From: the human T2T-CHM13v2.0 reference genome, Homo sapiens
Assembly (NCBI RefSeq): GCF_009914755.1
Contig: NC_060926.1
Length of the DNA stretch: 64,000 nucleotides
Strand: one strand, 5' to 3'
The translations under genes were made by a program, and so were the position numbers. This document shows, piece by piece, positions 28,245 through 30,969 of this stretch. Within the stretch, counting starts at the first letter, position 1. The number at the start of each line of letters is the position of its first letter. Under the pieces are notes generated by a model. That model was not told where the DNA came from and searched no databases. It was given only the letters and a program-made list of their open reading frames with translations.

Positions 28245-29016
28245 TGAACGTAGCTTCTTCAGCTTTTATCTACAACCTGCCCTCTTCAGGGCTTAAATAC
28301 CTGTTTGTGAGAGGTAGAGTAAGGAGCAAGTATTTTACTATCCTCTATAAATTCCTCACTCCTTGCAAATCATCTCCACTAAAACTTCACCATTGCATCA
28401 GGTACTCTCAGACATGCTTCAGTCTCTAGGTACCTTGGTATCTAGGTTTTAGATATCTAGTATATTAGATCTAGATATCCAGGTATGTAGATATCTAATG
28501 TATTGCAAAGGAAAGGTTTCAACATGTTTGACTTGGGGCACCATATTGTTTTATACAATTAAGTTGGCATATGTTTTAATTCCCCCAACTCTCATTTAAT
28601 ATTCCTATCCAGCTTTACAATGTATCTGCCTTCTTCCTATTCAAAGTTTAGCATTGCCTTCATCTAGGAGCTTGTTAAAAATACAGAAATTTGGTCACTA
28701 CTCCAGGCCTACTGAATTGGAATCTGAATTACTGTTGTCAATTCCACTAGTTAACATCAAAGTAATTCGTATTCATGTTAAAGTTAAGAGGTTATGATCT
28801 TTATTAGTCTACCATGCCCTGAACTTATTAGGTAACGATGAGCTAGGTAGTTTGAACAAAACCTCCAATGAAACAACTAAAATGAACTGGATAAAATATA
28901 AAATTATCTTAAGGAGGTCTCAGACTGAAAGATTTCTCATGTGCCTGGCAGAAGCAAACAAAAATTGCCACAAGAGAATGGTTTCATCACAGGACTAAAA
29001 TTACTTGTATAGATAG

Positions 29017-30782
29017 TTTTTTTTTTTTTTTTTTTTAAATGTGAGCCTTTTATTAAAATAAAGAAATAAAACTTTACTAAATAAATGGAAATATCTTTCT
29101 AGATAAAGTTGTACAACACTTCAAAATGCAGAATTACCTTATTTGATTTATATTTTATAAACTTGCTTTGTATTTTTCAATGTAAAAAGGAAAAACAAAC
29201 ATGTAAACCAGTTCACACTCTCCCTGGCGGAACAGATTGGTCCAGGGATAATTGCTGATTATACTGGAACGAATAATTGTAAATACATTTCACTTTGCTA
29301 GAGATAGCAAGAAACCCAATATACTAACAGAATAATATGCTACAACCAAACAAATTATAACATAATGAAAGAAAAGTAATAAATATTAATCTAAAGAAAG
29401 TTAGAAAAAAATTAAGGTAAAAACACACCATAAATAATAACAAAAAATATTCATATTGTCAATAAAACACCCCAGCTTTTAAAAGCTTTATATTAAGCAT
29501 ATTTCTATATTTCTATCTAAAATGAGGTTTTTTTAATCTTATAAGATAGTTTATTCAGTTTATAAAAGAGAAATAGGCAAAATATATTTGTATGACAAAT
29601 AACATTTATATGATTATTTCAGCACTTGGAATTGATTCAATAAAAGCTAAAGCCCTTTCCTCATTAAAAAAATTTCATTTAAAAATTAGATATGAAGCAT
29701 TGTAAGTTTAACAGAATAATGATCACTATTAGCTGTTAAAACGGTCAGCTAACTGCTATACTAAGACGTTTGGATAGCAAAGGATTAAGCTTGGTCTCTG
29801 AAGATAGACACTGATCCTTTCCTTCTCACGTTCTACCATGGACCAGTTGGGTAAGCCTTAGCAAATTACCATATTGCAGTTCCTTCATCAGAAATATGTT
29901 CATAAAAACAGTACCTCCTCTAAGGGTTTTCTCCAGGATTAAATAAGTTAATAAATATAATGCTCTTAGGATAATCCTTGCTACATATTAAGTTATCTAT
30001 AAATGCAAGCTTTTAGTATTACTATACTTAAATATAGAACTATCAGAGGTATTGCAGTAAAAATAGGAAAGAAAAAATTTTACTGTTACTGCTATAATTA
30101 TCATACTGCTCACAGTCTATGATACTACAAATTTTAATTAAAGCTTTCAATTGAATAGGTTTTTGTTAAAACCACAATCACATTAAATGTATATAACAAC
30201 TATAAGATTTCACCTATATTTCAAAAGTGTTAAAGTATAAGAAAGTACGTTAGGATGTAAATAATATGTTAATATTGGCCTGAAAATGTAGCAGGTTATA
30301 AAAAAATTGAATTGAAAGAATACATAATTGTTATTCTACGTCATATAAATTCATGTCTAGTATCCCAAGAAGACTAATTTAAAAAATGCGAATTAATAAG
30401 AGATAAGCAAATAGGAAAGTATATATTTGTAAAAATAAAAACATTTATAATAACTATCAGGCAACTATTAAAATCACATTTAAAATGCATTCATTCAATT
30501 AATATACTTTCCCATTATTTATTCATGCATTGTTTTATATAGACATATATATGTGTGTGTATATATGTATATATATATATATTTGTATTCATCCATTTGA
30601 CATTCTCTTACTTTACTAATACCTTTAGATCTGAATTTCAATTTTCTTTTTTTTTTTTTTGAGTTGCACAAAATTTTTATTTTTTTTATTTTTTATTTTT
30701 TATTTTTTATTTTTATTTTTTTTAATTTTTTTTATTATACTTTAAGTTTTAGGGTACATGTGCACATTGTGCAGGTTAGTTA
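29017..30782 (-). mobile_element. Young L1 (L1PA2/non-Ta L1HS-type) 3' stub with ~1.6-kb 3' transduction
   Basis: L1 end ATTATACTTTAAGTTTTAGGGTACATGTGCACATTGTGCAGGTTAGTTA (30734-30782); T tracts at 30674-30733, 30647-30660 and 29017-29036; minus-strand AATAAA at 29049-29054; TSD ATAGTTTTT. Confidence 0.88.
29775..30020 (+). mobile_element. MIR carried inside the transduced segment
   Basis: CAGTTCCTTCATCAGAAATATG...AACAGTACCTCCTCTAAGGGTT...AGGATTAAATAAGTTAATA. Confidence 0.7.
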
Positions 30783-30969
30783 TAGTTTTTAAAGTAGATA
30801 TCTAACATGCTATCAAAGATACCAGATGCTCAGAGAACATAGGGGACATGAATGAGGTCCAGCAAAACAACAGGCCACAGCAATAGACTTTAGATCAAGA
30901 AATTATTAGACACAAACCAAAAGACAACTGACTATGCTTATTTGAAGAAATATTTAAAATATCTAAACT

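What the first reader, a model, noticed from the sequence alone, without database searches (positions are those of the whole stretch)
29013..30790. Near-orphan L1 3' transduction: ~50 nt of young L1 carrying ~1.6 kb of foreign DNA
Seen, reading the minus strand: TSD, 49 nt of L1 3' end (30782-30734), A-rich tail, short tag, A14, ~1610 nt of AT-rich non-L1PA DNA (30646-29037), AATAAA 12 nt before a pure A20 tail (29036-29017), TSD. The TSD is ATAGTTTTT (29013-29021 and 30782-30790). The reconstructed empty site ATAGTTTTT/AAAAG is a canonical L1 endonuclease site. Established: read-through of the weak L1 poly(A) signal plus TPRT gives this structure. From recalled consensus, CACAATGTG with CTTAAAGTAT points to L1PA2 or non-Ta L1HS. 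Inference: a recent, possibly human-specific or polymorphic duplication that repeat annotation would show only as scattered fragments. The cargo holds a MIR and old L1-like DNA, so it looks like genomic flank, not a processed mRNA.
Basis: partly seen in the sequence, partly recalled or inferred. Interest (0 to 1): 0.8.

Follow-up and report, generated by a model that had tools for sequence, protein, structure and literature searches.

The report
Truncated L1 carrying chr8 DNA
A jumping-gene (L1) copy that kept only about 48 bases of itself dragged 1.6 kb of chromosome 8 DNA into chromosome 2, an ordinary but very clean example of a known process, and it records two parent L1s that this genome no longer holds.

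Summary
On the minus strand the insert reads: 9-bp TSD AAAAACTAT, 48-49 nt of L1 3' end, a 60-nt patterned A-rich tail, a 13-nt tag, A14, 1610 nt of cargo, AATAAA, 12 nt, a run of 20 A, and the TSD again.

The predicted second locus exists. The cargo matches chr8:84320924-84322548 end to end, with 6 substitutions and 5 small deletions. The chr8 copy has no poly(A), no TSD and no L1 upstream. It is therefore the source flank, seen as an empty allele.

New here:
- The event is a two-step transduction. The tag comes from chr5:128.43 Mb, which is also an empty site.
- A sibling on chr12 has the same L1 end, tail, tag and junction, but only 77 nt of chr8 flank. This rules out a template-switch chimera.
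- A cousin on chr6 carries about 109 nt of chr5 flank.

Substitution divergence is 0.37%, which gives roughly 1-4 My. That fits a human-lineage event, but presence or absence in apes and other humans could not be tested. The mechanism is textbook L1 TPRT. It is a new, well-resolved instance and not a new kind.

The parts
30782..30790 (-). 5' target-site duplication AAAAACTAT. The T at 30782 is also the next L1 base, giving 1-nt microhomology at the truncation point.
30734..30781 (-). The last 48 nt of a young L1 3' UTR (AACTAACCTGCACAATGTG...AAAGTATAAT). It is identical to the same stretch of the chr12 and chr6 relatives.
30674..30733 (-). 60-nt patterned A-rich tail: A8 TT A8 T A5 T A6 T A6 T A6 T A8 T A5. 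It was inherited from the source element. Its last 5 A match the A5 of the chr5 empty site.
30661..30673 (-). First transduction: a 13-nt tag TTTTGTGCAACTC copied from the flank at chr5:128428653-128428669 (minus strand).
30647..30660 (-). A14, the poly(A) of the chr5-to-chr8 insertion event. Up to 5 of these A may be templated by the chr8 site, and up to 2 by the chr5 flank.
29037..30646 (-). Second transduction: 1610 nt of unspliced, colinear chr8 flank (chr8:84320924-84322548). It differs by 6 substitutions and 5 deletions of 4, 3, 1, 4 and 3 nt.
29049..29054 (-). AATAAA poly(A) signal inside the cargo, 12 nt before the cleavage point. It is also present in the chr8 source.
29022..29036 (-). 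Untemplated poly(A) of the chr8-to-chr2 event: 15 A, which with the 5 A of the TSD makes a run of 20. chr8 reads TATTTTC at this place.
29013..29021 (-). 3' target-site duplication AAAAACTAT.

Best explanation
This is one L1 target-primed reverse transcription (TPRT) insertion on the minus strand. It is about 1.77 kb between 9-bp TSDs and carries a serial (two-generation) 3' transduction.

Generation 1. An L1 at chr5:128.43 Mb was transcribed past its own tail. The transcript was polyadenylated 13-15 nt into the flank, probably using an AATAAA inside its patterned tail, and it inserted at chr8:84.32 Mb.

Generation 2. The chr8 element was transcribed through its tail, tag and poly(A) into chr8 flank. 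One transcript ended after 77 nt and inserted on chr12. Another ran 1610 nt to a genomic AATAAA, was polyadenylated 12 nt later, and was reverse-transcribed at a TTTTT/AAAG nick on chr2.

The cDNA stopped after about 1.72 kb, only 48-49 nt into L1 sequence, so almost nothing of the L1 remains.

What is shown: the anatomy; the chr8 and chr5 origins of the two cargo pieces; the direction of copying; and the shared junctions in the sibling and the cousin.

What is inferred: that full-length L1s once sat at the chr8 and chr5 sites, since both are empty in this assembly; the choice of poly(A) signals; and the age of roughly 1-4 My.

The insert lies in intergenic DNA about 23.6 kb from the SPHKAP 3' end. 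The cargo is 18-38% GC by 200-nt window. No function was tested or is claimed.
For: - Anatomy: TSD, L1 end, tail, tag, A14, cargo, AATAAA plus 12 nt, and A-run were all verified.
- Source of the cargo: in the whole-genome search, 59 matches passed E<=0.001. One is the window itself and one is chr8 at full length. One is the first 73 nt on chr12. The other 56 are simple-repeat hits or weak 75-76% hits.
- Exact boundaries: the chr2/chr8 alignment starts at GAAAATTG and ends at CACATTT, with 6 substitutions and 5 gaps over 1610/1625 nt.
- Direction of copying: chr8 has unique DNA on both sides, with no L1, no poly(A) and no TSD.
- Sibling: chr12 has the same L1 end, tail, tag, A13 and junction. 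It is then identical to chr8 for 77 nt and ends in poly(A).
- Tag origin: the 17-nt tag pattern hits 10 places against 3 for the reversed control. Four of the 10 are chr2, chr12, chr6 and chr5.
- Cousin: the chr5 flank is copied at chr6, behind an L1 end with the same tail. The match is 113 nt; counted from the tag start it is about 109 nt with 1 mismatch.
- No further copies: DNA beyond the cargo on chr8 has no near-identical copy elsewhere.
- The general mechanism (read-through of the weak L1 poly(A) signal, then TPRT) is established knowledge. Section 19 of PMC12350158, read, describes partnered and orphan transductions and source tracing.
Against: - No filled allele, meaning an L1 actually sitting at chr8:84320923/4 or at chr5:128428669/70, was seen. 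Both sites are empty in this haploid assembly.
- No empty allele of the chr2 site was seen, because no other human or primate genome was available.
- The TSD has only 4 non-A bases.
- The implied chr8 target, AAAAG/AAAAAG in L1 sense, is not the best endonuclease consensus.
- All 5 indels are deletions in the chr2 copy, and there are almost as many indels as substitutions (5 against 6). Simple neutral decay does not predict this. It may mean errors at the retrotransposition step or a different source haplotype.
Confidence: 0.96

Rival explanations
1. A template-switch chimera. L1 reverse transcriptase started on a polyadenylated chr8 transcript unrelated to any L1. At that transcript's 5' end it jumped onto the poly(A) of a tagged L1 mRNA, so no L1 ever sat on chr8.
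For: chr8 shows no L1 upstream of the cargo in this assembly. Chimeric retrocopies made by template switching are known (recalled).
Against: The chr12 sibling has the identical tag-poly(A)-GAAAATTG junction but a different 3' end, 77 nt against 1610 nt. Two independent switches at the same nucleotide are very unlikely. The junction on chr8 lies in an A-rich stretch, as expected of an L1 target.
Confidence: 0.02
2. A DNA-level duplication, such as a segmental duplication or repair-mediated patch of chr8 DNA into chr2. It happened to land beside a small L1 fragment, and the 9-bp repeat is chance.
For: The TSD has only 4 non-A bases, with P of about 0.006 at a fixed place.
Against: - The copy ends in untemplated A15-20 exactly 12 nt after AATAAA, where chr8 reads TATTTT.
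- It starts exactly at the junction that the chr12 L1 copy also uses.
- The target is an L1 endonuclease-type site.
Confidence: 0.01
3. The copying ran the other way: chr2 is the original locus and chr8 the copy.
For: None beyond the bare similarity.
Against: The chr8 copy has no poly(A), no TSD and no L1, and it is continuous with unique flanks. The chr2 copy has all the retrotransposition marks. chr12 agrees with chr8, not chr2, at the TTAG indel.
Confidence: 0.005

Closest known systems
L1 3' transduction, partnered type (Moran 1999, Goodier 2000, Pickeral 2000, Szak 2003 are recalled and not read; PMC12350158 section 19 was read)
   Same: Read-through of the L1 poly(A) signal and use of a downstream genomic AATAAA. 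TPRT at a T-rich nick. TSDs flank the L1 plus cargo, and the cargo traces to a unique source flank.
   Different: The cargo is long: 1610 nt, against a range of 7-997 nt for the high-confidence polymorphic calls in the abstract of PMC9311842. The L1 part is unusually short, at 48-49 nt. The source L1 is absent from the assembly.
Orphan transduction (Solyom 2012 seen only in a reference list; PMC12350158 reports 48 orphan events)
   Same: Truncation is so severe that repeat annotation sees almost no L1. The insert looks like a dispersed duplication of unique DNA.
   Different: It is not a true orphan. It keeps 48-49 nt of L1, the inherited tail and an earlier tag, which allow the lineage to be read.
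Serial or nested transduction lineages used to trace L1 families (Szak 2003 and Macfarlane 2013, TS-ATLAS: recalled; could not be opened)
   Same: Successive cargo pieces, each followed by its own poly(A), record successive source loci. Relatives share the inner tag.
   Different: Here both recorded progenitor sites (chr5, chr8) are empty in the genome that holds the offspring. I found no paper that holds the tag string (0 papers).

Membership tests
L1 TPRT insertion with 3' transduction | Target-site duplication flanking the whole insert (L1 plus cargo plus tail) | tested here: met
   AAAAACTAT at 30790-30782 and 29021-29013
L1 TPRT insertion with 3' transduction | Insertion at an L1 endonuclease-type site (TTTT/AA-like on the primed strand; consensus recalled) | tested here: met
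   The reconstructed + strand reads ATAGTTTTT/AAAGTAG
L1 TPRT insertion with 3' transduction | L1 3' end and its tail lie 5' of the cargo, in the same orientation | tested here: met
   48 nt identical to the 3' ends of the chr12 and chr6 L1 copies, followed by the tail
L1 TPRT insertion with 3' transduction | Cargo ends in untemplated poly(A) a short way downstream of a poly(A) signal | tested here: met
   AATAAA at 29054-29049, then 12 nt, then A15-20. chr8 reads TATTTT there
L1 TPRT insertion with 3' transduction | Cargo is a colinear, unspliced copy of a unique locus elsewhere | tested here: met
   chr8:84320924-84322548, 1610/1625 nt, 6 substitutions and 5 gaps. It is the only full-length match among the 59 matches
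L1 TPRT insertion with 3' transduction | A full-length L1 lies immediately upstream of the cargo at the source locus | tested here: inconclusive
   Not present in this assembly. Its former or polymorphic presence is inferred from the chr12 sibling, which shares the junction
L1 TPRT insertion with 3' transduction | An empty pre-integration allele exists at the insertion site in other genomes | not testable with these tools
   No other human or primate genome is held
Orphan transduction | No L1 sequence at all in the insert | tested here: not met
   48-49 nt of L1 plus the inherited tail are present
Serial (nested) transduction | Two cargo pieces from two different loci, each followed by its own poly(A), with the inner one the older | tested here: met
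   Tag from chr5, then A14, then chr8 flank, then poly(A)
L1HS pre-Ta subfamily | ACG at the 3' UTR diagnostic trinucleotide (recalled: Ta = ACA, pre-Ta = ACG, older = GAG) | tested here: inconclusive
   The chr2 copy is too short to hold the site. The chr12 sibling and chr6 cousin read GATGACACGTTGG. The diagnostic rule comes from memory, not from a tool

The most novel reading that the evidence does not exclude
The chr5 and chr8 progenitors may not be extinct. They could still segregate in human populations as non-reference, retrotransposition-competent L1s of a small ACG/TTGG sub-lineage, which has 24 copies with this 24-mer in this genome. The chr2 insert itself may also be polymorphic. 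The tag-plus-tail signature would then be a ready barcode for finding the filled alleles in pangenomes.

Separately, there are 5 differences that are deletions at microhomologies in the copy, against 6 substitutions. These may be a direct footprint of errors made during transcription or L1 reverse transcription. That footprint is measurable here because the template, chr8, is known.
Probability: 0.25. Interest if true: 0.4.

Novelty: new member of a known kind. Interest (0 to 1): 0.25.

Why it matters
The finding shows that a 1.6-kb interchromosomal duplication of unique DNA, chr8 to chr2, was made by L1. It sits in a stretch where the hub's masking list shows no masked run of 100 nt or more, so repeat annotation would give little hint of it.

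It also recovers a three-generation L1 pedigree from tags alone: chr5 to chr8 and chr6, then chr8 to chr12 and chr2. Both parents are missing from the genome. This illustrates how dead, truncated offspring outlast their active parents.

In practice it gives exact coordinates and a barcode for looking up two candidate non-reference source L1s in pangenome data. It does not change any concept, because the mechanism is textbook.

Tried and rejected
- TSDs of the relatives. I looked for a TSD of the chr12 sibling and of the chr6 cousin and found none of 8 nt or more.
- L1 5' end on chr6. The ORF layout shows an inverted RT-bearing segment instead.
- Other tag hits. 6 of the 10 hits of the tag pattern are unrelated. 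Five share a different common context that looks like a processed-pseudogene family, and one is unique DNA on chr8:104.16 Mb. I rejected them as chance matches.
- MIR claim. Re-searching 211 nt of the cargo gave only 1 weak hit besides the two copies, so the repeat content could not be decided.
- Literature. Szak 2003, Pickeral 2000 and Macfarlane 2013 are not held. The full-text search for the tag string found 0 papers. The main texts searched by passage do not mention sources at 8q21.1x/84 Mb or 5q23. The 8q21.11 source in PMC12350158 is a different element that makes 5' transductions.

Full report
**1. Observation**

| Element | Window coordinates |
|---|---|
| 5' TSD AAAAACTAT | 30790-30782 |
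| L1 3' end AACTAACCTGCACAATGTG...AAAGTATAAT | 30781-30734 |
| Patterned A-rich tail, 60 nt | 30733-30674 |
| Tag TTTTGTGCAACTC | 30673-30661 |
| A14 | 30660-30647 |
| Cargo, 1610 nt, AT-rich (18-38% GC by 200-nt window) | 30646-29037 |
| AATAAA, followed by 12 nt | 29054-29049 |
| A run of 20 | 29036-29017 |
| 3' TSD AAAAACTAT | 29021-29013 |

- The L1 part is 48 nt, or 49 nt if the T shared with the TSD is counted.
- The only correction concerns the last five A of the run. They are also the first five bases of the TSD, so the untemplated tail is 15-20 A.
- The reconstructed target, CTTT/AAAAACTAT in L1 sense, is a T-run/A nick site of the L1 endonuclease type (consensus recalled).
- A chance match of the four non-A bases of the TSD at a fixed position has P of about 0.006.
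- The 9-mer occurs 3 times on the + strand of the window and 0 times on the minus strand.

**2. The source of the cargo**

I searched the window's own genome with the 1610-nt cargo. It gave 59 matches at E<=0.001.
- One is the window itself.
- One is chr8:84320924-84322548, full length.
- One is chr12:26640856-26640932, covering the first 73 nt of the query.
- The other 56 fall on a TA/CA simple repeat (query 39-139) or are two weak 75-76% hits (query 626-754).

The chr2/chr8 alignment starts exactly at GAAAATTG and ends exactly at CACATTT. It has 6 substitutions and 5 gaps of 4, 3, 1, 4 and 3 nt. All five gaps are deletions in the chr2 copy, so 1610 nt align with 1625 nt.

On chr8 the segment is continuous with unique DNA on both sides.
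- Upstream it reads ...CCACACCAAAGAAAAGAAAAA|GAAAATTG, with no L1.
- Downstream it reads CACATTT|TATTTTCTATTG, with no poly(A).
- The 2.45 kb further downstream has no near-identical copy elsewhere.

So chr8 is the donor and chr2 the retro-copy. In this assembly the donor locus is seen as an empty site.

**3. A sibling settles the mechanism**

The chr12 hit is a roughly 190-nt L1 3' end. It is followed by the same patterned tail, the same 13-nt tag and A13. It is then identical to chr8 for 77 nt and ends in a long poly(A).

Two insertions therefore share the junction tag-poly(A)-GAAAATTG but end at different points of the chr8 flank. The simplest account is one L1, already carrying the tag, that sat immediately upstream of GAAAATTG on chr8 and was read through twice.

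This excludes the main rival, a reverse-transcriptase template switch from an unrelated chr8 transcript onto an L1 mRNA. That rival would need two switches at the same nucleotide.

The chr12 copy keeps the chr8 state (TTAGTTAG) where chr2 has TTAG. That deletion therefore arose on the chr2 lineage.

**4. The tag is an older transduction**

A genome-wide pattern search for the tag with four preceding A gave 10 hits, against 3 for the reversed control. Inspection sorted them as follows.
- Four belong together: chr2, chr12, chr6:87853809-25 and chr5:128428653-69.
- Five others share an unrelated common context that looks like a processed-pseudogene family.
- One is unrelated unique DNA.

At chr5 the tag lies in unique DNA, ...GAATGTT|AAAAATTTTGTGCAACTCAACCTATG..., with no L1 upstream. 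This is again an empty site, and a TT/AAAA target.

At chr6 an L1 3' end with the same kind of patterned tail is followed by the tag. It runs on into the chr5 flank and then ends in a run of about 20 A. By the match is 113 nt at 99%. Counted from the tag start it is about 109 nt with 1 mismatch. One search found no further copy of the chr5 flank.

In all three offspring the tail ends in exactly five A before TTTTGTGC, the same as the A5 of the chr5 site.

The pedigree is therefore: an L1 at chr5 gave rise to an L1 at chr8 and to the chr6 copy. The chr8 L1 then gave rise to the chr12 copy and the chr2 copy, which is this finding. Neither inferred parent is present in this haploid assembly.

**5. 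How it most likely worked**

The mechanism is established knowledge. The L1 poly(A) signal is weak, and transcripts that run into the flank and use a downstream signal are reverse-transcribed by TPRT.

Applied here:
- Shown: the chr8 element's transcript ran 1610 nt to a genomic AATAAA and was cleaved 12 nt later.
- Shown: priming took place at TTTTT/AAAG on chr2.
- Shown by the anatomy: the cDNA ended about 1.72 kb from its start, only 48-49 nt into L1. That 1.72 kb is the poly(A), cargo, A14, tag and tail together.
- Inferred: the near-orphan look simply follows from a long cargo combined with ordinary 5' truncation.
- Inferred: the 13-nt tag probably reflects use of an AATAAA inside the patterned tail.

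**6. Age and subfamily**

Six substitutions in about 1605 aligned sites give d = 0.37% (Poisson 95% interval 0.14-0.81%).
- With 1e-9 per site per year on both copies, the age is about 1.9 My (0.7-4.1).
- With 0.5e-9, it is about 3.7 My (1.4-8.1).

These are upper-leaning estimates. Differences between source haplotypes and errors at the retrotransposition step are counted as if they were age. There are 5 indels against 6 substitutions, all five are deletions in the copy, and each lies at a 2-4-nt repeat. This hints at such errors.

The chr2 copy is too short to hold the Ta/pre-Ta diagnostic. The sibling and the cousin read GATGACACGTTGG. ACG is what I recall as the pre-Ta state, and that is recall, not a test.

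This exact 24-mer occurs 24 times in the genome, against 0 for the control. I displayed the 22 copies other than chr12 and chr6. Of these 22, 8 begin their tail with A(10-15)TTA(n), as our family does, and one (chr5:122.19 Mb) has a similar (A5-8 T)n pattern. The tail motif thus seems to be inherited along a small sub-lineage.

**7. What could not be tested**

- Whether the chr2 insert is human-specific or polymorphic, and whether filled alleles exist at chr8 and chr5. No other human or primate genome is held.
- The repeat content of the cargo, because no repeat library is held (one search was uninformative).
- Whether the locus is already listed in published call sets.
- The tag string is in no held paper.

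**8. Comparison with what is known**

PMC12350158 (section 19 read in full; other passages) reports the following.
- 466 of 5,311 polymorphic L1 insertions carry transductions.
- There are 48 orphan transductions.
- There are 208 traced L1 progenitors, many of them absent from the reference.

The abstract of PMC9311842 gives lengths of 7-997 nt for its high-confidence calls.

Our case is a partnered 3' transduction at the long end of that range. It has an unusually short L1 part and a nested older tag. It is not an orphan by definition. Everything about it follows the known mechanism.

**9. Verdict**

It is a clean, fully traceable instance of a known process. It has modest interest as a pedigree whose two parents are missing, and as a pointer to two candidate non-reference source L1s.

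Noticed in passing
L019 (chr12:26640480-26640975) = L003 1200-1620: The chr12 sibling is a roughly 190-nt L1 3' end that directly abuts the 3' end of an older, diverged L1. No TSD of 8 nt or more was found within 9 kb upstream. It may be an insertion with a target-site deletion or a microhomology-mediated 5' junction.
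   Followed up: partly
L021 (chr6:87853000-87862500), about 880-2122 on the minus strand and from 2123 on the plus strand: The chr6 cousin has a direct 3' segment of about 1.2 kb joined to an oppositely oriented L1 ORF2 segment. That segment holds a 627-aa open frame with RVT_1 at E = 3.5e-48. The layout is what twin priming produces. Its outer end and its TSD were not found.
   Followed up: partly
24 genome sites listed; tails shown for 22 (L027-L048): A small L1 sub-lineage shares GATGACACGTTGG. Of the 22 displayed copies, 8 start their tail with A(10-15)TTA(n). The copy at chr5:122.19 Mb (L037) has a patterned (A5-8 T)n tail like the family described here. This suggests that tails are inherited by read-through.
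   Followed up: partly
window 29037-30646 against L020 (chr8): All 5 indels between cargo and source are deletions in the chr2 copy, each at a 2-4-nt direct repeat, and they nearly equal the 6 substitutions. This may be a footprint of slippage during transcription or reverse transcription, or of a different source haplotype.
   Followed up: partly
L010, L012, L013, L017, L018 (chr5:20.31, chr6:25.01, chr6:76.03, chr14:58.81, chr22:45.67 Mb): Five dispersed copies of one GC-richer sequence, which looks like a processed-pseudogene family, happen to contain the 17-nt tag pattern. They are unrelated to the L1 lineage.
   Followed up: no
L020 7670-8925 (chr8:84323670-84324925): About 1.2 kb downstream of the cargo's end on chr8 lies an old interspersed repeat with many copies at 69-75% identity across the genome. 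It is not part of the transduced segment.
   Followed up: no
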